Below, one piece after another: positions 1-6,173 of a stretch of DNA of 6,173 nucleotides. The stretch lies in the IMG/VR virus record IMGVR_UViG_3300020030_000008, positions 1 to 6,173 of that record, one strand, 5' to 3'. The stretch comes from a virus. Within the stretch, counting starts at the first letter, position 1. Every line of letters begins with the position of its first letter. The notes under the pieces are model-generated. The model was not told where the DNA came from. It ran no database searches and worked only from the letters and a program-made list of their open reading frames with translations. Made by a program: the position numbers and the translations under genes.

Positions 1-121
1 CTTATAACCTTGCGAAATATCGGCCAAATAGGCCTCGATAGACATAATTTGAGCTTGCGCCTCATGCAATCTAGCAACTTCACCTGCATCCTTAACATTG
101 TGTTGGGCAATCTGCAATTCA
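1..121. repeat. Terminal direct repeat, copy 1 (identical to 6053-6173); circular-contig overlap
   Basis: Base-by-base comparison: cttataaccttgcgaaatatcggcc...gggcaatctgcaattca occurs at both window ends with no mismatch. The repeat stops exactly at the window boundaries. Confidence 0.95.
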
Positions 122-693
122 AAATTATCCATCTGCTCTCGCCATTCTCGCGTATGAGTATTACCTCGAAGGTTAGCAGCTTCTGCTTCATCTCGATCAG
201 CGGCAGCGGCATTGCGATCAACCGTAGAACGCGCAAGCATATTCTGCGCAATAGCAGTAGGGTCAGCAGCGGCAAAACCACCGGGGGCAACGGGTGCACC
301 ACCAGAAGGACCAGAGGCAGAGGGCATAGATGCGGAACCGCCTGACATAGTAGCATTTACGCCAACACCAGAAGAACCAAGGACAGCGGCTGGTGTTACA
401 CCTGCCTTCAAATAGCGATCGAAAACCTTCGTAGGATCATTATATGCATTCTCGTAATCAAACTGTTTTTGCCAATTAGCATAGGAAAGTTCAGACTGCT
501 TTTGCATCTGCTCAAGGGCATACTTCTGTTGAAGCTTCATTTGTTTTTGTTGAAACTTCCACTGGCGACGAGCGTTCATGCCGCCAAAAAGCTGGCCGAG
601 AGCGCCAGTAATCAGACCGGTAGTACCGGTAGAGGCAGCCGACTGACCAAGAGCCTGGCCAAAAGATGCGGCGGCAGCAACAGGAATAGGCAT
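1..693 (-). CDS. VP2: Minor capsid / DNA pilot protein (VP2/H-like), N-terminal part; the ORF runs off the window start and continues at 6052 down to 5486 (419 aa in total)
   Basis: ATG at 693-691. My translation of the complement: MPIPVAAAASFGQALGQSAASTGTTGLITGALGQLFGGMNARRQWKFQQKQMKLQQKYALEQMQKQSELSYANWQKQFDYENAYNDPTKVFDRYLKAGVTPAAVLG...REQMDNFELQIAQHNVKDAGEV. This reads in frame into the 5486..6169 track ORF. The leading M of that track ORF is really a TTG Leu codon. It is absent from the ORF track because no stop falls inside the window. It has a Gly/Ala-rich N-terminus, then a Q/K-rich helical stretch, then a Y..R.LKAG(V/L)(T/N)P-type motif that I recall as typical of microvirus VP2 proteins. 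Confidence 0.8.
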   Translation of the reverse strand, partial: MPIPVAAAASFGQALGQSAASTGTTGLITGALGQLFGGMNARRQWKFQQKQMKLQQKYALEQMQKQSELSYANWQKQFDYENAYNDPTKVFDRYLKAGVTPAAVLGSSGVGVNATMSGGSASMPSASGPSGGAPVAPGGFAAADPTAIAQNMLARSTVDRNAAAADRDEAEAANLRGNTHTREWREQMDNFELQIAQHNVKDAGEVARLHEAQAQIMSIEAYLADISQGYK

Positions 694-694
694 A

Positions 695-886
695 CTATAT
701 GTGAGTTAAATTGTTAGAACGAATAATGTAATCAACGCGAACAGTGTCGATATGAACGCCACTACGCTGCATCCTAGCCTGAGCCGAACAAGAAGTAAGA
801 AAAAAAGTAGCCAATGCAGCAATAATAGATGAAACGAGCGTCCAAAAAGCCTTTGATTTATAGAACGGTTGTTTGACGTCAGACAT
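695..886 (-). CDS. Small predicted lipoprotein / membrane protein (63 aa), function unknown
   Basis: ATG at 886-884, TAG at 697-695. The pilot gene ATG follows 1 nt later (TAGtATG). The N-terminus MSDVKQPFYKSKAFWTLVSSIIAALATFFLTSC has a Lys-containing n-region, a hydrophobic core of about 17 aa, and L-T-S-C (Cys33, codon 790-788) fitting the lipobox pattern [LVI][ASTVI][GAS]C. Confidence 0.65.
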   Translation of the reverse strand: MSDVKQPFYKSKAFWTLVSSIIAALATFFLTSCSAQARMQRSGVHIDTVRVDYIIRSNNLTHI

Positions 887-939
887 GATATTAGAAATTT
901 AGGGGGAAGCTACGGTGCCGCACCCTCACTTCGTTCGGG

Positions 940-956
940 GCGCTTCTCCGAAGCGC
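940..956 (-). promoter_or_regulatory. Perfect 7-bp GC-rich hairpin with a 3-nt loop in the spacer upstream of the lipoprotein gene
   Basis: gcgcttc (940-946), tcc, gaagcgc (950-956) are exactly complementary. The stem-base sequence recurs at 4524-4552. No U/T tract follows on either strand, so it is not a classic intrinsic terminator. Confidence 0.6.
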
Positions 957-964
957 GAAATGCG

Positions 965-1102
965 TCACCTCGCCACAATGGTGTAAACAATTGAATAAAT
1001 AAATAAAGAACGATAGAAAAATGCGCGACCTCTCCCGCAGTCGTTACCAATAACCTTCAGCAATTCACGAACTCTTGCAGAAGGGGTTCGCGCACGTAGC
1101 AT
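965..1102 (-). CDS. Possible 45-aa mini-ORF with an Arg-rich N-terminal half and an aromatic/hydrophobic C-terminal half (speculatively a J-like DNA-binding protein)
   Basis: Hand translation from ATG 1102-1100 to TGA 967-965: MLRARTPSARVRELLKVIGNDCGRGRAFFYRSLFIYSIVYTIVAR. It is not listed in the supplied ORF track, whose shortest entry is 63 aa. It starts 22 nt after the stop of the 98-aa gene. The C-terminal half comes from an AT-rich stretch that could equally be non-coding. Confidence 0.25.
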   Translation of the reverse strand: MLRARTPSARVRELLKVIGNDCGRGRAFFYRSLFIYSIVYTIVAR

Positions 1103-1124
1103 ATATCGTCAAGTAAAGAGGGTA

Positions 1125-1421
1125 CTATTTTTCTTCAGTTTTAGAAGGTTTCGCAGCAGACTTCGACCTCTCTATCTCTGAATCAATGAGTTCCTGGCCA
1201 ACCTCGAGACCATCGAACTTGTCCATGCGGGAAAAGGAGTTAGGATCGAAATCAATCTCGGGATTGAACTTTTCGCCCTTATCAAAGTCAGAGGCCTCAA
1301 CCACCACGTCCGGACGGCCAGGCAAAACATCTACGGAGCCAGAACCGTCAAGGACGGACATAATTCGCTGGCCGCGGGAAACATAAGCGGGAGCATCCTC
1401 AATAAGCCAATCAAGTGCCAT
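1125..1421 (-). CDS. Acidic 98-aa protein, possible internal scaffolding protein (VP3-like) by position and charge
   Basis: ATG 1421-1419 lies 12 nt after the capsid gene stop; TAG at 1127-1125. By my count it has about 22 Asp/Glu and about 12 Lys/Arg. No motif I can name, so the functional call rests on context only. Confidence 0.55.
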   Translation of the reverse strand: MALDWLIEDAPAYVSRGQRIMSVLDGSGSVDVLPGRPDVVVEASDFDKGEKFNPEIDFDPNSFSRMDKFDGLEVGQELIDSEIERSKSAAKPSKTEEK

Positions 1422-1433
1422 AAAATCAATGTG

Positions 1434-3230
1434 TTAACGATTAGACAAACGGGTCGCGAATGTTTTATTCACCAAATTCTTCTTCTGAACCGAATAAGAC
1501 ATATTCACAAAGAAATTATCTTCCACGGTCGAGACAAAAGGCGAATTCACCTGCGACAAATCAACAAAAAGCAACGGATAATAATAGGACTCAGGCAAAG
1601 AGCCGGTACCACTGGAAGTTAAAACGGCGCGCTGCTGAACCCAGTAAGAGTAAAGTGGAACGCCGGAGCCACCCTCGGCAGGATCCATATGATAAGCTTG
1701 AAGCTGGCCAAGTACCTCATCATAAGACGAACGAAACTCATTAAAACACGGCTCAGACGCAGAACTGGCACCGGGATTACCGTTAAACGCTATACGGAAA
1801 GCCGGAACGTCCTGATAACCAATATCGTTGTAAATAGGATTGAAATAGTCCGAACCAGTGTAGTTGAGATAATCAGGCTTAATAAAGCTCCAATAATAAA
1901 CGGGCCTAATACTCAGCATATCAATCAAATAACCTGGTTCACGAAAATAATAAGACTGTCGACGACCCAAACGATCGTTGAATGCGATAGAACCACCCTG
2001 CTGGCCAAGGGGCTGGCCGCCGGAGAAATTATTGTTTCCTGCCTGATTCATCACAAGCTGAACGTTGATCGTTTGAGAAGCGCTAAAGAGAAGCTTAGGC
2101 CGGTCAACATGTTCAATCTTAGAGGCAAAAAACGTCTCCAACCAATCACTATAACGGCTGCCACCAGCGCCCAAAAGATCCTTATATTCCTGAAGACGCG
2201 AAGCGATAGCCAACTGCGGGATAGTAGTTACGCCCGTCATAGAAACAGCAGACGAGGAGCCTACAGGAATAAGACGGCTAAAACGATCGGGATTTGAAGG
2301 CACAACGGCCATAGGGTGAGTGATTAAGAAATAAGCTAAACCCGGAGAGGCTTCAGAGCCAGTACTCGTGAGGGTCTGCGAAATAAGACCTTTGGTACCA
2401 TACAAAGATGTACTCGGGTAAGACGAGACAACGGGATAACCATCACCAGAAGCAGAACCACTACTCAAGTCCGACCTAATGATCTGGAGAAAGAGGTTGC
2501 CGCGATTGAACGTATTATTAGTAGACGTTAAGGACGACGGATAAAATTGACTCTCGTAAAAAGCATCCAAGAACTCAAGATTCCCATAACACTGTGTGAA
2601 AAACCTGGAATCACCAGAATTCTCAGGATCAAGAGCGTACCCACCGGATGAAAAAATAAGCTTATTCGCCATAGGCCACGCAAAAGAATAAAGTCCCCAC
2701 TGCGAATAGCCATAATAGTTTCGAACAATATCCCAATAAGCTAAATACGTATCAGCATTGGACCACTGAGACATATTGGCGGAGGACGGAAGAGAAACAG
2801 ATGCAAGAGGGGTACCACCAACATTGTACTTATTGCCAACGCGAAGCCAAGAAAAAAGCGAATTTGTATACGATGCGCCGAAAAAACCGGAATTCAAAGA
2901 ACCAGCGGAGGGAACCGTAGAACAAATCCAATTCAAACTCAACCCGTTCATGTCAAACTTGCTGCTATTTGTCCTCAACTCAGGATGGTACAGCTGCAAA
3001 GGCACCCAGAAACGGTGAAGTCTAATGGTATAGGGGTTAAACGTCGGAACAGCAAGCGGGTTGCTGCGAACGTCAACTCCTTGTTCAATGGATACACGAT
3101 CACGAGCGTTAACAAAATCAATACGCACAGGATACAAAATACCCGGTGTACACGTAAAAGCCTTACTCTCGGGAACGTCGTATCGAGAATAGCCATTTAC
3201 GGAATGTGAAATAAAAGGTTGTTTTCCCAT
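1434..3230 (-). CDS. VP1: Major capsid protein (Microviridae F / VP1 family), 598 aa
   Basis: It is the longest ORF. ATG 3230-3228 lies 3 nt after the Rep stop. The N-terminal region ...YDVPESKAFTCTPGILYPVRIDFVNARDRVSIEQGVDVRSNPLAVPTFNPYTIRLHRFWVPLQLY follows the pattern seen in phiX174 F (...LAGQIGRLITISTTPVIAGDSFEMDAVGALRLSPLRRGLAIDSTVDIFTFYVPHRHVY) and in gokushovirus VP1. Size and position fit microvirus capsid genes. Confidence 0.93.
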   Translation of the reverse strand: MGKQPFISHSVNGYSRYDVPESKAFTCTPGILYPVRIDFVNARDRVSIEQGVDVRSNPLAVPTFNPYTIRLHRFWVPLQLYHPELRTNSSKFDMNGLSLNWICSTVPSAGSLNSGFFGASYTNSLFSWLRVGNKYNVGGTPLASVSLPSSANMSQWSNADTYLAYWDIVRNYYGYSQWGLYSFAWPMANKLIFSSGGYALDPENSGDSRFFTQCYGNLEFLDAFYESQFYPSSLTSTNNTFNRGNLFLQIIRSDLSSGSASGDGYPVVSSYPSTSLYGTKGLISQTLTSTGSEASPGLAYFLITHPMAVVPSNPDRFSRLIPVGSSSAVSMTGVTTIPQLAIASRLQEYKDLLGAGGSRYSDWLETFFASKIEHVDRPKLLFSASQTINVQLVMNQAGNNNFSGGQPLGQQGGSIAFNDRLGRRQSYYFREPGYLIDMLSIRPVYYWSFIKPDYLNYTGSDYFNPIYNDIGYQDVPAFRIAFNGNPGASSASEPCFNEFRSSYDEVLGQLQAYHMDPAEGGSGVPLYSYWVQQRAVLTSSGTGSLPESYYYPLLFVDLSQVNSPFVSTVEDNFFVNMSYSVQKKNLVNKTFATRLSNR

Positions 3231-3233
3231 AAA

Positions 3234-4304
3234 TTAAATAATTAGTTGTAGTTTATAGTGATCTCTCCAAAACTGAAGAATATCCAGATCTAGCCAAGTA
3301 GGGGGGTCAAAATCTGGCATCTTGCAAGAAGACGCGGCGAAGCGCATTATTTGCTTTTGCTCCCACGTATACGACGCTCTACGGGATACGGCGGAATCGA
3401 GGCCGAACCGCTCAACGCACAGAGACACAATACGCTTAACCAGAGAAGACTTGCTAAAACGTGCATAAGAGTCAGCAGCGGTAATCGAGCGACAAACCTC
3501 GTCTTCCGGTTTGAGATATTTAAGATAGTATCGAGGAATCGAGTAATTGTAATTGATACGCTTCTGAAAATCATAATAAGACCACGACGAAGTACGAACA
3601 GAAGGGCGAGGCATATAACCAAGAAAATCACCAACGCCAGCAGAGACGAATTTTCGCGTATAACGGCGATGTTGGAGGAGGCAAGATAAAGGTGTAGGGT
3701 TTCCATCTATGGTAACATATTTGTCCGAAATTTCTTCGGGATTAAATTGAATCTGTTTAGTAACATACTTAACGCAGTAACGAGCACGCTTATGGGTAGC
3801 CTTCGCCAACCACACAAAACCTAGATCTCGAACGGCGGCGCGAATGGTATTGTAGAGAACGTTTGTGCCAAACAAAAAGCCATGAAAATGCAATCGAGGT
3901 TCATTTCCTGTTTCGGGATGAATGCCAAACTCCTGAAAAAAGGCGTGTTTAAACGAATGGCCTAACTTATGGCGCAGACGCTCGTTGAATCGGCGGATAA
4001 ACCAGGACGGATCAAGCAAAGCTTTGTCATAATACTTCGGAGCGATCGTTATTGTGATAAAAATAGCCTGCTGACTATTAGCTTTACAATGGGCAAGCTC
4101 GCGTTCGAGACGCACGAACCAATCATTACGCTGACGACGCAAACAATCTTCACACTTTCCGCAGGGAACCATAAGCCACTGACGGGCTATGTCCCAGGGG
4201 CGGAGAGCCAAAGCAGACTTTGCGACGTCGGAGCCGTCACGACAGGGATTCTTCTTGTCGAAATAGCGACGATTACGTATCCATATGGGCGACGAACAGG
4301 GCAT
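3234..4304 (-). CDS. VP4: Replication initiation protein, HUH rolling-circle endonuclease (Microviridae A / VP4 family), 356 aa
   Basis: Motif I-like FITITI (aa 82-87). HUH motif RLHFHGFLF (His139/His141, codon 3890-3888). Twin-tyrosine motif YCVKYVTK (Tyr176 codon 3779-3777, Tyr180), matching my recollection of the phiX174 A catalytic YxxKYxxK arrangement. N-terminal Cys cluster PCGKCEDC, as I recall it in microvirus VP4 proteins. Confidence 0.92.
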   Translation of the reverse strand: MPCSSPIWIRNRRYFDKKNPCRDGSDVAKSALALRPWDIARQWLMVPCGKCEDCLRRQRNDWFVRLERELAHCKANSQQAIFITITIAPKYYDKALLDPSWFIRRFNERLRHKLGHSFKHAFFQEFGIHPETGNEPRLHFHGFLFGTNVLYNTIRAAVRDLGFVWLAKATHKRARYCVKYVTKQIQFNPEEISDKYVTIDGNPTPLSCLLQHRRYTRKFVSAGVGDFLGYMPRPSVRTSSWSYYDFQKRINYNYSIPRYYLKYLKPEDEVCRSITAADSYARFSKSSLVKRIVSLCVERFGLDSAVSRRASYTWEQKQIMRFAASSCKMPDFDPPTWLDLDILQFWRDHYKLQLII

Positions 4305-4504
4305 TACAGAAGACTTTGAAGGCAGTCAAACTTAATGGCAGGATGATCGAAACGACAGCGAATGAGGTAATCGTTGGCAGACTCTTCGTCGGAAAACCAG
4401 GCGATAACAACTCGCTTTTTACCGCGATATGCTGCAACAGAAAAACGGTAGGGAATACTGTCGATAACGGGAGAAAAACGGGGACGAAAATCAAACTTAT
4501 CCAT
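4304..4504 (-). CDS. Hypothetical 66-aa protein overlapping the start of the Rep gene
   Basis: ATG at 4504-4502 (MDKFDFRPRF...). The track ORF begins 2 codons earlier at a GTG (4510). Its stop TAA (4306-4304) overlaps the Rep ATG (4304-4302) as TAATG. I recognise no family. Confidence 0.6.
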   Translation of the reverse strand: MDKFDFRPRFSPVIDSIPYRFSVAAYRGKKRVVIAWFSDEESANDYLIRCRFDHPAIKFDCLQSLL

Positions 4505-4748
4505 AATCACAGAAAAATACTTTGCGCTTCGAAAGGCGGTACTTTCGAGCGCGAGAACTACTTCGTTACGCCGGCCGACCGCCTAACGGCGGGGACGCTT
4601 CGCGTCTTCGGCCTCCATGGCTCCACTCCGTGGACTATATACCGGATAAATCCGGTGAGTTTGCGGACAAAAGCTCCCAAGGAGAGAAAACCTCTCCCGG
4701 GAGCATCGCAATTAAAGAACTCTTCCACCAAGAGGACGGGTGACGACC
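4505..4748 (-). promoter_or_regulatory. ORF-free, hairpin-dense intergenic region; candidate complementary-strand origin, structured RNA, or terminator/promoter hub
   Basis: On the coding strand the ATG-initiated frames I traced here are 23 and 11 codons long. Hand-checked helices: 4524-4552 (4+7 bp with one bulged t). Three-way junction ggccg 4573-4577 / cggcc 4609-4613 enclosing ccgcc-taac-ggcgg (4579-4592) and gacgc-ttc-gcgtc (4594-4606). tccac-tcc-gtgga (4622-4634). accgga-taaa-tccggt (4641-4656). Nested gctccc/ggagag-aaaac-ctctcc/gggagc (4673-4704), closed by ttgcg 4661-4665 / cgcaa 4707-4711. ctctt-ccacc-aagag (4720-4734). Confidence 0.6.
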
Positions 4749-5072
4749 TTAGTTCCTCTTCCTTTCTTTTTCCGACGGGCCTTCATCGCAATCGAGATTA
4801 AAATCAAACATGAGAACAAGAGTATTATCAAAAAAATCAACTCGGAAATGAGGGAGACTACCACAGGTAGTGACAAGTTCAAAAATTTCCGAATGATCGA
4901 CGTAAAGCGAATCGCTAATGAAAGAACTATTCAGAAAACGCGCGAAAGGAGTATCCATAAGAGCGCTGAGCGGAAGGGATACGAATTGACCATCCTTGAT
5001 GTAGCCTACCTGGGCGAGGTCAATTTTGAGAGCCGGGTTGACGCGACGAATAACAACGTGAATCTGTGTCAT
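4749..5072 (-). CDS. Hypothetical 107-aa protein (accessory, unrecognised)
   Basis: ATG at 5072-5070 (MTQIHVVIRRVNPALKIDL...) lies 11 nt after the stop of the upstream 106-aa gene; TAA at 4751-4749. The track ORF 4749..5144 starts at a TTG and would overlap the upstream gene by 61 nt, so the ATG start is preferred. The protein is net acidic with a charged C-terminal tail, DCDEGPSEKERKRN. Confidence 0.6.
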   Translation of the reverse strand: MTQIHVVIRRVNPALKIDLAQVGYIKDGQFVSLPLSALMDTPFARFLNSSFISDSLYVDHSEIFELVTTCGSLPHFRVDFFDNTLVLMFDFNLDCDEGPSEKERKRN

Positions 5073-5083
5073 AACAATGTAAT

Positions 5084-5404
5084 TTAAAGTTTCGATTGAA
5101 ATCTGAGATAAAAACGCCTCCAGGCATCGGAATATTTTCTCCAAAAATCATAACCCTCAGGCGTCGAATCAAACAAGAAAGCGGTAGAAATGAGATAGGT
5201 AGGGCCTAAGTTCGGGTCACAAAGAGAACGCCGAATATGGGCGCGCAAACGGTCGCGAAAACCACCGTAGGGCGAAACGACGACATCGTAGTTCGTCTTA
5301 AAAGAGACGAATATTCCTTGACGAACGAGCCACTCGGTAAAAGCATAATCGAGAACGTCAACAATCAAATCGCCAGGCTTGAAATTTTTACTTCCTTTTT
5401 TCAT
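5084..5404 (-). CDS. Hypothetical 106-aa protein (accessory, unrecognised), net basic
   Basis: ATG at 5404-5402, TAA at 5086-5084. It follows an 81-nt T-rich spacer after the pilot gene. Sequence MKKGSKNFKPGDLIVDVLDY...FDSTPEGYDFWRKYSDAWRRFYLRFQSKL. I recognise no family. Confidence 0.65.
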   Translation of the reverse strand: MKKGSKNFKPGDLIVDVLDYAFTEWLVRQGIFVSFKTNYDVVVSPYGGFRDRLRAHIRRSLCDPNLGPTYLISTAFLFDSTPEGYDFWRKYSDAWRRFYLRFQSKL

Positions 5405-5485: not shown

Positions 5486-6173
5486 TCAGTTTCTCCTAAA
5501 ATAACTGCGGCGAGTGTACGTGGCGCCGATTTGATCCCCAGAGGGGCCATAAACATCACGCATCTCCTCATAACCTTCGGGTCCCGCAGGACCTGCGGCC
5601 TTGCGGCCAACGTACGAGGCGCCTGCAATGCCGGCAGCGGCGGCGAAAGAACGAACGACATCATGAGCGAGACGAAGTCGAGAGTTACGCAAATCCCAAC
5701 GAGCGTTGCCTGTTTCGAGCTGAGCAGTTTCGGCAGCGGCAGTCTTCAGAATAGCCAGAGTTTCGGCCACCTTCATCGTCTTCGTCTCAACGACTTCACC
5801 CTTCTCATTGCGTATTTGGACAGGGACTTCTTTTTCCCAATTCAGTTCGAACCACTTTTGCAAATCCTTGAGCTCCTGAGCGTTGAGAGCCGTACGGGAC
5901 TCAGACTCAGCGGCGGAGGCCACATTAGCAACCGCGGAACTCCAGGCAACTGCGAGGGCAGCACCTGCTTGCGGGGCAAACCAATCATTAGACTGGCGGA
6001 GGTAGTTGTATTTTTCCTCTAGAATTCCTGTCATAGCCATAATAGAGGAAAGCTTATAACCTTGCGAAATATCGGCCAAATAGGCCTCGATAGACATAAT
6101 TTGAGCTTGCGCCTCATGCAATCTAGCAACTTCACCTGCATCCTTAACATTGTGTTGGGCAATCTGCAATTCA
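5486..6173 (-). CDS. VP2: Minor capsid / DNA pilot protein (VP2/H-like), C-terminal part; its upstream portion lies at 693-1 after circularisation
   Basis: Open frame from the window end down to TGA at 5488-5486. It is the same frame as the 693..1 segment: 693 to 118 is 576 nt, i.e. 192 codons, then 227 codons plus the stop. Predicted helical/coiled region, Ala/Gly-rich patch FAAAAGIAGASYVGRKAAGPAGPEG, and basic tail RRSYFRRN. Confidence 0.8.
   Translation of the reverse strand, partial: ELQIAQHNVKDAGEVARLHEAQAQIMSIEAYLADISQGYKLSSIMAMTGILEEKYNYLRQSNDWFAPQAGAALAVAWSSAVANVASAAESESRTALNAQELKDLQKWFELNWEKEVPVQIRNEKGEVVETKTMKVAETLAILKTAAAETAQLETGNARWDLRNSRLRLAHDVVRSFAAAAGIAGASYVGRKAAGPAGPEGYEEMRDVYGPSGDQIGATYTRRSYFRRN
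6053..6173. repeat. Terminal direct repeat, copy 2 (identical to 1-121); circular-contig overlap
   Basis: Same comparison as copy 1; the offset between copies is exactly 6052 nt. Confidence 0.95.

What the first reader, a model, noticed from the sequence alone, without database searches (positions are those of the whole stretch)
695..886. 63-aa predicted lipoprotein placed 1 nt upstream of the pilot gene: candidate lysis or superinfection-exclusion factor
The product has a textbook signal-peptidase-II architecture. There is a Lys-bearing n-region, the hydrophobic core AFWTLVSSIIAALATFF, and the lipobox LTSC with Cys33. Cleavage would leave a mature peptide of only 31 aa (CSAQARMQRSGVHIDTVRVDYIIRSNNLTHI). 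Its stop lies 1 nt before the VP2 ATG (TAGtATG), implying co-expression with a virion protein. I know of no lipoproteins among characterised microviruses. phiX174 lyses its host through the membrane protein E, and lysis in gokushovirus-like phages is poorly understood. In tailed phages, small lipoproteins act as o-spanins (Rz1-type) or receptor-blocking exclusion proteins (T5 Llp, Cor), so either role is conceivable here.
Basis: partly seen in the sequence, partly recalled or inferred. Interest (0 to 1): 0.65.

Follow-up and report, generated by a model that had tools for sequence, protein, structure and literature searches.

The report
Conserved small lipoprotein gene in microviruses
A tiny single-stranded-DNA phage genome carries a real, strongly conserved gene for a 63-residue protein with every sequence hallmark of a bacterial lipoprotein; such a protein has never been studied in this virus family, and it is one of two candidates for how these phages open or modify the host cell envelope.

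Summary
Window 886..695 (minus strand) encodes the 63-aa protein as described: lipobox LTSC, Cys33, and a stop codon 1 nt before the pilot (VP2) ATG. The window is a complete circular microvirus genome of 6052 nt.

- **Real gene.** pN/pS is 0.15 in this frame and above 2 in the other two. Every complete relative examined carries it.
- **Family.** It belongs to an uncharacterised family: 377 clusters at 90% identity and 64 at 50%. The family spans at least five capsid lineages sharing only about 20% VP1 identity.
- **Lipoprotein signature.** In 142 unique N-terminal modules the Cys is invariant and position -1 is always Ser, Gly or Ala. Three members carry the same mature peptide behind unrelated signal peptides that still end in lipobox-Cys.
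- **Oddities.** The hydrophobic signal region is the most conserved part. The roughly 30-aa mature peptide comes in several classes that have been swapped among close relatives.
- **No known family.** Pfam, PHROGs, NCBIfam and PDB gave no hit. One nr record already carries an automatic "lipoprotein" label.

Function is untested. I favour a lysis or envelope role (about 0.4) over superinfection exclusion (about 0.3). A second conserved membrane-protein gene, overprinted inside Rep, is a serious rival lysis candidate.

The parts
695..886 (-). Complete coding sequence of the 63-aa prolipoprotein (ATG 886..884, TAG 697..695)
   Evidence: ORF listing and translation. pN/pS is 0.15 in this frame against 2.1-2.2 in the other two, over 73 gap-free orthologues. 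There are 377 homologous clusters. The exact protein occurs on three other ~6.06-kb contigs from independent samples.
851..886 (-). n-region of the signal peptide (aa 1-12, MSDVKQPFYKSK; K5, K10, K12)
   Evidence: Read directly from the sequence. The Lys at position -21 relative to Cys is invariant in 142 of 142 unique modules.
800..850 (-). Hydrophobic h-region (aa 13-29, AFWTLVSSIIAALATFF)
   Evidence: Kyte-Doolittle peak of 2.4. This is the most constrained part of the gene, with pN/pS 0.09. F, W, T, L, AAL and FF are nearly invariant, and the spacing to the Cys is fixed at 19 residues across the family. It is the only segment AlphaFold2 models confidently as a helix (pLDDT 87-91).
788..799 (-). 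Lipobox L30-T31-S32-C33; the Cys33 codon is at 790..788
   Evidence: PS51257 and G+LPPv2 matches. Cys is present in 142 of 142 modules. Position -1 is S in 112, G in 23 and A in 7. Positions -2 and -3 are the most variable in the module, yet stay within lipobox-compatible residues.
698..790 (-). Predicted mature lipopeptide (aa 33-63, CSAQARMQRSGVHIDTVRVDYIIRSNNLTHI), class 1 with the GVHxDTV motif
   Evidence: G43, H45, D47, T48, V49, D52, R56 and S57 are invariant in 73 orthologues despite saturated synonymous sites. The same peptide is found behind three unrelated lipobox-bearing signal peptides (P0147, P0156, P0163). D/E occurs at +2..+6 in only 5 of 274 members.
691..697 (-). Junction TAG-t-ATG between the lipoprotein stop and the VP2 (pilot) start
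   Evidence: The gap to the next long ORF is 1 nt in 70 genomes and 2 nt in 28.
1..693 (-). 5' part of the VP2/pilot gene, immediately downstream. It continues across the circular junction to 6052..5486, for 419 aa in total.
   Evidence: Reconstructed on the circularised genome. It matches PHROG pilot-protein families phrog_8689 and phrog_31272.
887..1124 (-). Non-coding region upstream of the gene. It holds a conserved element with a terminator-like hairpin (1043..1017) and a window-specific GC-rich insert of about 110 nt (about 887..1000).
   Evidence: Terminator-like site found. In relatives without the insert, gene callers read the conserved element as a false 37-aa N-terminal extension (MLRARTP...FFYRSL). 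Its frame relative to the ATG varies between genomes, and the 4 residues before the Met are not conserved. No Shine-Dalgarno motif lies upstream of this or any other gene.

Best explanation
**What is shown.** The ORF is a genuine microvirus gene. It is translated together with the pilot gene VP2. Its product has a signal peptide ending in a lipobox.

**What is inferred from the established Sec / Lgt / LspA pathway.**
- The precursor inserts into the inner membrane.
- Cys33 is diacylglycerylated.
- Signal peptidase II cuts before Cys33, leaving a 31-residue lipopeptide.
- The mature N-terminus has no Asp at +2 and no acidic export signal of the Bacteroides type. It should therefore end up on the periplasmic face of the outer membrane.

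**Proposed role (hypothesis).** It is an envelope-acting late protein that contributes to host lysis.
- One route is through its conserved polar peptide (H45, D47, T48, R50, D52, Y53, R56) engaging a host periplasmic or outer-membrane target.
- Another is through its unusually conserved, possibly stable, signal helix. This is the way colicin-release lipoproteins work.
- It may act together with the holin-like membrane protein overprinted in Rep.

My confidence that it is a lipoprotein is about 0.85. My confidence that its role is lysis-related is about 0.4.
For: **Real gene.**
- pN/pS is 0.15 in this frame and above 2 in the other frames, with saturated synonymous sites at almost every codon.
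- It is present in all complete relatives.
- The exact protein occurs in three further samples.

**Lipoprotein.**
- It matches the PS51257 and G+LPPv2 patterns, and 94-95% of 237 family members also pass.
- Cys is invariant, and position -1 is S, G or A in 142 of 142 modules.
- The Cys marks the exact boundary between two independently conserved modules. The conserved signal peptide is joined to at least three classes of mature peptide. The class-1 mature peptide is joined to three unrelated signal peptides that still end in lipobox-Cys.

**Sorting.**
- D/E occurs at +2..+6 in 5 of 274 members.
- The Bacteroides surface-export signal is CS(D/E)2 (PMC6222051).

**Coupling to VP2.** The stop-to-ATG gap is 1-2 nt in 98 genomes.

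**Lysis reading.**
- No muralytic enzyme or other exported protein is recognisable in this genome.
- The M15 endolysin is absent from all of about 147 collected loci except phiHBP1.
- The five M15-bearing microviruses examined lack the lipoprotein.
- The lysis mechanism of non-phiX microviruses is an acknowledged gap (PMC3394797; PMC7062461).
- The gene is retained across capsid lineages sharing only about 20% VP1 identity, while the lipoprotein stays 55-65% identical.
- The h-region is the most constrained part. From my own knowledge, this recalls the functional, stable signal peptides of bacteriocin release proteins.
Against: - There is no experimental evidence of lipidation or of any phenotype.
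- SignalP and LipoP could not be run. A 19-residue invariant-length hydrophobic segment could also serve as an uncleaved membrane anchor.
- Some class-2 members have Glu at position -2 (LESC), which is atypical for a lipobox.
- A second conserved candidate exists: a 119-aa protein with three hydrophobic segments, overprinted in Rep. It resembles phiX174 E/K or a holin more than the lipoprotein does.
- The mature peptide has highly specific conserved polar residues, and its classes were swapped at least four times within the VP1 tree. That pattern fits a receptor- or host-specific binder (exclusion) at least as well as a lysis factor.
- The M15-versus-lipoprotein exclusivity involves different deep lineages, so it is phylogenetically confounded.
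- The host is unknown. No prophage was found in 185,579 species genomes. A Bacteroidota host is inferred only from the absence of SD motifs.
Confidence: 0.4

Rival explanations
1. Superinfection exclusion or receptor masking, in the manner of T5 Llp or Cor. The outer-membrane-anchored lipopeptide would bind the periplasmic side of the phage's receptor, or the incoming pilot (VP2) conduit. That would block DNA entry by later phages. It would also prevent progeny from being wasted on debris and outer-membrane vesicles.
For: - The predicted location is the same as for Llp and Cor: a periplasm-facing outer-membrane lipoprotein with no export signal.
- The mature peptide has many invariant polar and charged residues, as expected of a specific protein binder.
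- The mature-peptide classes are exchanged among closely related genomes at least four times while the signal peptide stays constant. This is typical of host-specificity modules.
- In the main clade the gene sits between the capsid/scaffold genes and the pilot gene and is translationally coupled to the pilot.
- Carriage of a gokushovirus genome is known to confer superinfection immunity by an unknown mechanism (PMC7062461).
Against: - There is no sequence similarity to Llp, Cor or any PHROG, Pfam or PADLOC-type family (PADLOC not searched).
- At 30 aa, the mature peptide is about half the size of Llp or Cor (sizes from my own knowledge).
- Retention is universal under strong purifying selection in 6-kb genomes across at least five deep lineages. 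That would be unusual for an accessory immunity gene, although T5-like phages also keep llp.
- In other lineages the gene is not next to VP2 but lies between VP2 and Rep.
Confidence: 0.3
2. It is not a lipoprotein. The N-terminal segment would be an uncleaved transmembrane anchor whose sequence-specific helix binds a host membrane protein, in the manner of the phiX174 E transmembrane domain and MraY. The short C-terminal peptide would be a replaceable periplasmic appendage.
For: - The hydrophobic helix is the most conserved part (pN/pS 0.09). It has an invariant length and near-invariant F, W, T, L, AAL and FF residues, whereas typical signal peptides evolve fast.
- The C-terminal part is exchangeable between classes.
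- AlphaFold2 models only this helix with confidence.
Against: - Position -1 is S, G or A in 142 of 142 modules, and the Cys is invariant exactly at the module boundary.
- Three members replace the whole helix with unrelated hydrophobic segments yet keep lipobox-Cys and the class-1 peptide. So the helix is dispensable for that peptide while the lipobox is not.
- The two readings are not exclusive. A cleaved but stable signal peptide could be the active helix.
Confidence: 0.12
3. It is the outer-membrane half of a spanin-like or two-component system. The lipoprotein would cooperate with a phage inner-membrane protein, either the Rep-embedded holin-like ORF or VP2 with its N-terminal hydrophobic and coiled-coil regions, to breach the envelope.
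For: - It is a small outer-membrane lipoprotein gene abutting a gene whose product class is described as having an N-terminal transmembrane domain and coiled coils (VP2; PMC3394797; junction).
- A conserved polytopic membrane protein is present in the same genomes.
- In sister lineages the lipoprotein frame continues for about 190 aa.
Against: - No endolysin is present, and spanins act after peptidoglycan degradation (my own knowledge).
- The mature peptide is not Pro-rich and is too short to span the periplasm.
- There is no hit to Rz or Rz1 families.
- The hydrophobic stretch in the long forms is explained as the alternative-frame shadow of another gene's conserved motif. In the window's clade that frame contains stop codons.
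Confidence: 0.1

Closest known systems
Colicin lysis proteins / bacteriocin release proteins (Pfam PF02402 Lysis_col)
   Same: Both are very small prolipoproteins. The precursor is about 45-63 aa and the mature lipopeptide about 28-33 aa. Both are made from a tiny replicon and act on the Gram-negative envelope. In the release proteins the signal peptide itself is functional; that point, and the sizes, are from my own knowledge. It parallels the extreme conservation of the h-region here.
   Different: There is no sequence match to PF02402 or any other Pfam family. The gene is viral, not plasmid-borne in a colicin operon. The probable host (Bacteroidota) is not known to have the OmpLA-dependent release pathway. 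No lysis phenotype has been shown.
Rz1-type o-spanins of tailed phages
   Same: Both are small phage-encoded lipoproteins predicted to sit in the inner leaflet of the outer membrane. In both, the gene is tightly juxtaposed to a gene for a membrane-associated protein.
   Different: There is no Rz-like partner, no endolysin or canonical holin cassette, no proline-rich mature region, and no PHROG spanin hit above noise. The neighbouring gene is the DNA pilot.
T5 Llp and phi80/N15 Cor superinfection-exclusion lipoproteins
   Same: The predicted compartment is the same. The logic is also the same: a small lipoprotein encoded near the genes that determine entry. The mature domain is variable and exchangeable.
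   Different: There is no sequence similarity. The mature peptide is about half the size. No receptor is known. The gene is not always next to the entry genes.
phiX174 protein E (single-gene lysis, MraY inhibitor)
   Same: Both are small microvirus proteins whose conserved N-terminal hydrophobic helix is the most constrained part.
   Different: E is overprinted inside gene D and has no lipobox. This gene is free-standing and has an invariant lipobox Cys. The Rep-embedded ORF at 3706..3347 is the closer architectural analogue of E or K.
nr record 'MAG TPA: lipoprotein [Microviridae sp.]' (P0014)
   Same: It is 95% identical over the 63 aa and belongs to the same family.
   Different: It is an automatic label on a 100-aa gene call that includes a false N-terminal extension. 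No study of the protein was found in the searchable literature.

Membership tests
Bacterial lipoproteins (SPase II substrates; PROSITE PS51257) | Positively charged n-region followed by an uncharged hydrophobic h-region | tested here: met
   K5, K10 and K12 precede the A13-F29 core. The Lys at position -21 is invariant in the family.
Bacterial lipoproteins (SPase II substrates; PROSITE PS51257) | Lipobox [LVI][ASTVI][GAS]C with the Cys within the first 35 residues | tested here: met
   LTSC with Cys33. PS51257 and G+LPPv2 patterns match. Of 237 family members, 224 and 222 respectively pass.
Bacterial lipoproteins (SPase II substrates; PROSITE PS51257) | Cys and a small residue at -1 conserved in homologues | tested here: met
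   Cys is present in 142 of 142 modules. Position -1 is S in 112, G in 23 and A in 7. Both Cys codons (TGT and TGC) are used.
Bacterial lipoproteins (SPase II substrates; PROSITE PS51257) | Actual lipidation and globomycin-sensitive cleavage | not testable with these tools
   This needs labelling or mass spectrometry in a host. SignalP and LipoP were also unavailable.
Rz1-type o-spanin | Cognate i-spanin (N-terminal TMD plus periplasmic coiled coil) encoded overlapping or adjacent, within a holin-endolysin cassette | tested here: not met
   The adjacent gene is the pilot VP2. No endolysin or spanin family is found in any ORF. No M15 is present.
Rz1-type o-spanin | Sequence or profile match to spanin families | tested here: not met
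   The only PHROG hit is noise (Rz-like spanin, E=0.3, for one relative).
Colicin lysis protein (PF02402) | Pfam Lysis_col profile match | tested here: not met
   No Pfam hit below E=0.09, and none to PF02402.
Colicin lysis protein (PF02402) | Small prolipoprotein with a mature lipopeptide of about 30 aa | tested here: met
   The predicted mature peptide is 31 aa. This is a resemblance of form only.
T5 Llp / Cor exclusion lipoproteins | Sequence or profile similarity | tested here: not met
   No PHROG, Pfam, NCBIfam or PDB hit.
T5 Llp / Cor exclusion lipoproteins | Blocks the phage's own receptor | not testable with these tools
   The receptor and the host are unknown.
phiX174 E-type single-gene lysis protein | Small membrane protein gene overprinted within another gene, with the N-terminal TMD as the active part | tested here: not met
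   The gene is free-standing between a non-coding region and VP2. The TMD-conservation aspect is met, but the helix is replaceable in three members.

The most novel reading that the evidence does not exclude
This lipoprotein family is the missing lysis system, or an indispensable half of it, for a large group of gut microviruses that lack both an E-like inhibitor and an endolysin. It would be a virus-encoded release lipoprotein of about 30 residues. Its lipidated peptide, its stable signal helix, or both would trigger envelope failure, possibly together with the holin-like protein overprinted in Rep. That would be a new class of single-gene or two-gene lysis in ssDNA phages.
Probability: 0.3. 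Interest if true: 0.8.

Novelty: new variant of a known kind. Interest (0 to 1): 0.6.

Why it matters
How microviruses other than phiX174 get out of their hosts is an acknowledged gap (PMC3394797, PMC7062461). These phages are among the most abundant in animal guts.

This work defines a short, highly conserved, easily synthesised candidate that can be tested directly: the 63-aa lipoprotein, together with a 119-aa overprinted membrane protein.

- **If it is a lysis factor,** it would add a lipoprotein-based mechanism to the short list of 'protein antibiotics' of small phages. It would also point to a vulnerable envelope target, probably in Bacteroidota.
- **If it is an exclusion factor,** it would be the first such system in Microviridae. 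It would explain carrier-state immunity, and its exchangeable mature peptide would be a marker of receptor specificity.
- **Either way,** many database gene calls for this family are wrong (100-aa forms with a false N-terminal extension) or missing.

Tried and rejected
1. **Profile searches.** I searched Pfam, PHROGs, NCBIfam and PDB sequences with the protein, its mature peptide, a class-2 member and a long form. Nothing rose above noise.
2. **AlphaFold2 on a 22-sequence alignment.** Only the transmembrane helix is confident and the mature part has pLDDT 55-65. I did not run a fold search.
3. **The 100-aa gene calls in databases.** I rejected these as the true product. The extension is a conserved non-coding element with a terminator-like hairpin. 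Its frame relative to the ATG varies, and in the window it is separated by a ~110-nt insert.
4. **The 56-aa hydrophobic ORF at 4882..4712 as another membrane protein.** Rejected. Only its last 24 codons are conserved (a J-like mini-gene with an invariant Met), and the upstream part has stop codons in relatives.
5. **Host assignment through prophages.** Two scans of 185,579 species genomes with VP1 patterns found nothing. The isolated Bacteroides microvirus phiHBP1 is only about 20% identical in VP1 and lacks the gene.
6. **Mutual exclusivity with the M15 endolysin.** The data are consistent with it: 0 of about 147 lipoprotein-context loci have M15, and the five M15 microviruses examined lack the lipoprotein. 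However, these are different deep lineages, so I count it as weak evidence only.
7. **u-spanin-like reading of the 180-223-aa long forms.** Not supported. The 'C-terminal TM' is the alternative-frame image of another gene's motif, and the basic tail is the J-like protein.
8. **Rfam scan of the window.** No match.
Full report
**1. What the window is**

The first 121 bases are repeated at the end, so the window is a circular genome of 6052 nt. All genes lie on the minus strand. In the direction of transcription the order is:

| Gene | Coordinates | Size | Evidence |
|---|---|---|---|
| Pilot VP2 | 693..1 plus 6052..5486 | 419 aa | PHROG pilot families |
| Unknown ORF | 5404..5084 | 106 aa | |
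| Unknown ORF | 5072..4749 | 107 aa | (listed from an upstream TTG as 5144..4749, 131 aa) |
| J-like mini-gene | 4786..4712 | 24 aa | |
| Small ORF | 4504..4304 | 66 aa | (listed from an upstream GTG as 4510..4304, 68 aa) |
| Rep/VP4 | 4304..3234 | 356 aa | Pfam REP_ORF2-G2P |
| Major capsid VP1 | 3230..1434 | 598 aa | Pfam Phage_F |
| Acidic ORF | 1421..1125 | 98 aa | |
| Non-coding stretch | 1124..887 | — | |
| Target ORF | 886..695 | 63 aa | |

The closest deposited genomes are uncultured faecal microviruses from pig, musk deer, rodents, tortoise and lemur, at 70-76% DNA identity. No gene has a Shine-Dalgarno motif upstream, and GC content is 46.6%. From general knowledge this fits a Bacteroidota host, but it does not prove one.

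**2. The observation**

- The 63-aa sequence, the Lys-bearing n-region, the core AFWTLVSSIIAALATFF and the LTSC lipobox with Cys33 are all there.
- The predicted mature peptide is 31 aa.
- The junction to VP2 is TAG-t-ATG.
- The PROSITE PS51257 core pattern and the G+LPPv2 lipoprotein pattern both match. This ORF is the only one of 70 Met-initiated frames of at least 40 aa in the genome that matches the latter.

**3. It is a real gene**

A search of 5.8 billion proteins returned 377 clusters at 90% identity. The top 120 are at least 83% identical to the query. The exact protein occurs on three other ~6.06-kb contigs from independent runs, with the same gene order.

I collected 80 related genomes from IMG/VR through VP1 (67-92% identity), plus genomes from GenBank.
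- The gene is found in 91 of 96 loci by tblastn.
- Two of the five misses carry a divergent class-2 version at the same place.
- Two misses are truncated contigs.
- The last miss is the distant phiHBP1.

Over 73 gap-free orthologues, selection acts on the protein rather than on a DNA or RNA element:

| Frame | pS | pN | pN/pS |
|---|---|---|---|
| This frame | 0.63 | 0.094 | 0.15 |
| Frame +1 | 0.117 | 0.246 | 2.1 |
| Frame +2 | 0.109 | 0.242 | 2.2 |

Almost every codon shows several synonymous variants.

**4. The true start**

Forty-six of the 120 best hits are 100 aa long because gene callers began at an upstream ATG (MLRARTP...FFYRSL). Three observations argue against that start.
- The extension is read in different frames in different genomes.
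- The four residues just before the Met are not conserved.
- In the window it is a separate 45-aa ORF, split off by an insert of about 110 nt.

The extension covers a conserved element containing a terminator-like hairpin at 1043..1017. The 63-aa form is therefore the product, which a signal peptide requires in any case.

**5. Is it a lipoprotein?**

I pooled all family members found into 142 unique N-terminal modules.
- The Cys is invariant.
- Position -1 is Ser (112), Gly (23) or Ala (7).
- Positions -2 and -3 are the most variable in the module, yet stay within lipobox-compatible residues. The exception is a few LESC variants.
- The distance from the FW motif to the Cys is fixed at 19 residues.
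- 94-95% of 237 members pass the two published lipoprotein patterns.

The strongest argument is modularity, because the Cys sits exactly at the junction of two independently conserved modules.
- The conserved signal peptide (K-K-F-W-T-L-V-A-A-I-V-A-A-L-x-A-F-F) is joined to at least three or four different mature peptides. These are class 1 (GVHIDTVRVDY), class 2 (HYVVQSASSxKSGDTTRTTITYEQ and variants), and others.
- Conversely, the class-1 mature peptide occurs behind three unrelated hydrophobic leaders (P0147, P0156, P0163), each still ending in a lipobox and the Cys.

A plain membrane anchor would not need a small residue and a Cys at that junction in all of these combinations.

Acidic residues at +2..+6 occur in only 5 of 274 members. 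In Bacteroides, CS(D/E)2 is the signal for surface exposure (PMC6222051). The mature peptide should therefore stay on the periplasmic side of the outer membrane. By E. coli rules (my own knowledge), the absence of Asp at +2 gives the same destination.

Lipidation itself cannot be tested here, and SignalP and LipoP were not available.

**6. Two unusual features**

First, the hydrophobic region is the most constrained part of the gene. Its pN/pS is 0.09, against 0.19 for the mature part. It is nearly invariant across the whole family. Signal peptides normally evolve fast. This suggests that the helix has a job beyond targeting, as in bacteriocin release proteins (my own knowledge). Since three members replace the helix entirely, that job cannot be indispensable for the class-1 peptide.

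Second, mature-peptide classes are polyphyletic on a VP1 tree of 109 genomes. Class 2 appears in at least four separate places among class-1 genomes. The 3' half of the gene has therefore been exchanged repeatedly.

The family also spans capsid lineages sharing only 19-25% VP1 identity (L005, L006/L010, L009, L012 and the window's clade). Across these the lipoprotein stays 55-65% identical. In those other lineages the gene lies between VP2 and Rep rather than upstream of VP2. In the main clade the gap from its stop to the VP2 ATG is 1 nt in 70 genomes and 2 nt in 28. This implies translational coupling.

**7. What it is not**

Nothing rose above noise in Pfam, PHROGs, NCBIfam or PDB sequences. 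I searched the whole protein, the mature peptide, a class-2 member and a long form. It is therefore not a member of the Rz1, colicin-lysis, Llp/Cor or entericidin-type families by sequence. AlphaFold2 is confident only about the transmembrane helix.

The searchable literature holds no paper on a microvirus lipoprotein or lipobox. One nr record carries the automatic name 'MAG TPA: lipoprotein [Microviridae sp.]'.

**8. Function**

The literature states that phiX174 is the only microvirus whose lysis mechanism is known. It also states that gokushovirus-like genomes lack an E-like gene, although some acquired M15 peptidases (PMC3394797; PMC7062461).

*Evidence bearing on a lysis role.*
- None of the ORFs in this genome matches a muralytic enzyme.
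- Among about 147 loci collected here, only phiHBP1 has an M15 peptidase, and it has no lipoprotein.
- M15 occurs in well over 100 microvirus records.
- The four further M15-bearing genomes I examined lack the lipoprotein. They belong to other deep lineages, so this is weak evidence.

*A rival candidate.* The lipoprotein is not the only candidate. Inside Rep, in the +1 frame (window 3706..3347), lies a 119-aa ORF with three hydrophobic segments and a charged C-terminus.
- It is open at the same place, with a conserved Met, in the great majority of 74 relatives, down to 45% Rep identity.
- The diversity of Rep's fourfold-degenerate sites drops from 0.54 to 0.12 exactly over codons 200-318 (Mann-Whitney p = 8e-21).

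It is a genuine overprinted gene. Architecturally it is closer to phiX174 E/K or to a holin than the lipoprotein is.

*Weighing the readings.* Against a pure lysis reading of the lipoprotein stand its many invariant polar residues and its class switching. Both suit a specific binder of a variable host structure, as in Llp- or Cor-type exclusion.

| Reading | Probability |
|---|---|
| Lysis or envelope disruption, alone or with the embedded ORF | about 0.4 |
| Superinfection exclusion or receptor masking | about 0.3 |
| Uncleaved anchor | 0.12 |
| Spanin-like pairing | 0.1 |

These last two are minor alternatives.

**9. An unexplained relative: the long forms**

About 30 of the 64 clusters at 50% identity are 180-223 aa long.
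- The lipoprotein frame has no stop of its own.
- It runs through the +1 frame of another gene (ORF-X).
- It ends in the conserved basic tail ...RRGGRRGRPRPKxKTIPLGGSHL.

That tail corresponds to the J-like DNA-binding mini-protein. In 117 of 120 other cases this protein is a separate 23-32-codon gene with its own Met. In the window it is MKARRKKKGRGTKVVTRPLGGRVL. Compare phiMH2K ...NPRAMRGGIRL.

Codon shuffles show that the +1 frame of ORF-X stays open by chance in 7-39% of trials per genome. Chance read-through is therefore possible. However, the lengths are bimodal with no intermediates, which hints at selection. Possible ATG, GTG or TTG starts for an independent J exist in most long-form genomes. 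I could not settle whether the fusion is translated.

**10. Verdict**

The finding is real and well described. The lipoprotein call is robust at the sequence and evolutionary level. The function is open. The family has not been studied and is absent from curated libraries. It is also mis-called or missed in many database records.

It is best filed as a new variant of a known kind: a small phage-encoded envelope lipoprotein, in a virus family where none has been characterised. It is a directly testable lead on the open question of microvirus lysis and immunity.

Noticed in passing
window 3347..3706 (minus strand), inside Rep/VP4 (3234..4304): This is an overprinted 119-aa ORF in the +1 frame of Rep: METLHLYLASSNIAVIRENSSLLALVIFLVICLALLFVLRRGL...PPYPVERRIRGSKSK. 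It has three hydrophobic segments and a charged C-terminus, so it looks holin-like or like phiX174 E/K. It is open at the same position with a conserved Met in the great majority of 74 relatives, down to 45% Rep identity. Diversity at Rep's fourfold-degenerate sites falls from 0.54 to 0.12 exactly over codons 200-318 (p = 8e-21). It has no Pfam or NCBIfam hit. It is a rival candidate for the lysis gene.
   Followed up: partly
window 4712..4786 (minus strand): This is a 24-codon mini-gene, MKARRKKKGRGTKVVTRPLGGRVL. It overlaps the 3' end of the 107-aa ORF in another frame. The Met is invariant and the peptide is nearly invariant in 58 relatives. It resembles the J-like DNA-binding protein of phiMH2K (...NPRAMRGGIRL). 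The 56-aa ORF listed at 4712..4882 is a chance upstream extension, because relatives have stop codons there.
   Followed up: yes
L006 4688..5320, L010 4097..4672, L100-L103, L105, L106, L120; proteins P0125-P0168: In a sister lineage the lipoprotein frame has no stop. It runs about 110 codons through the +1 frame of another gene and ends in the J-like basic tail, giving proteins of 180-223 aa. Lengths are bimodal with no intermediates. Codon shuffles give a 7-39% chance per genome of the frame being open by accident. Whether the fusion is translated is unresolved.
   Followed up: partly
window 887..1124 and 4511..4711: These two intergenic regions have several features.
- The first holds a conserved element with a terminator-like hairpin at 1043..1017 (CGACTGCGGGAGAGGTCG followed by a T-run). 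Gene callers mistranslate it as MLRARTP...FFYRSL.
- The first also holds a window-specific GC-rich insert of about 110 nt with hairpins.
- Both regions share a 20-nt motif at 1060..1079 and 4708..4727 (85% identical).
- There is no Rfam match, and the fold z-score is not significant.
   Followed up: partly
window 1..121 and 6053..6173: There is an exact 121-nt terminal direct repeat. The window is a circularly permuted, complete 6052-nt genome, and VP2 spans the junction.
   Followed up: yes
L011, L064, L086, L098, L099, L132 (class-2 homologues upstream of VP2): Some class-2 members have Glu at lipobox position -2 (LESC). This falls outside the PROSITE and G+LPP patterns. It may reflect a more permissive lipobox in the unknown host, or a processing difference.
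   Followed up: no
L010 4934..5245; L120 977..1117 and 1127..1309 (inside Rep): Other capsid lineages that carry the lipoprotein also have hydrophobic ORFs overprinted in their different Rep genes, with a shared SRIW...VFVSI motif. Rep-embedded membrane proteins may be widespread in these microviruses.
   Followed up: no
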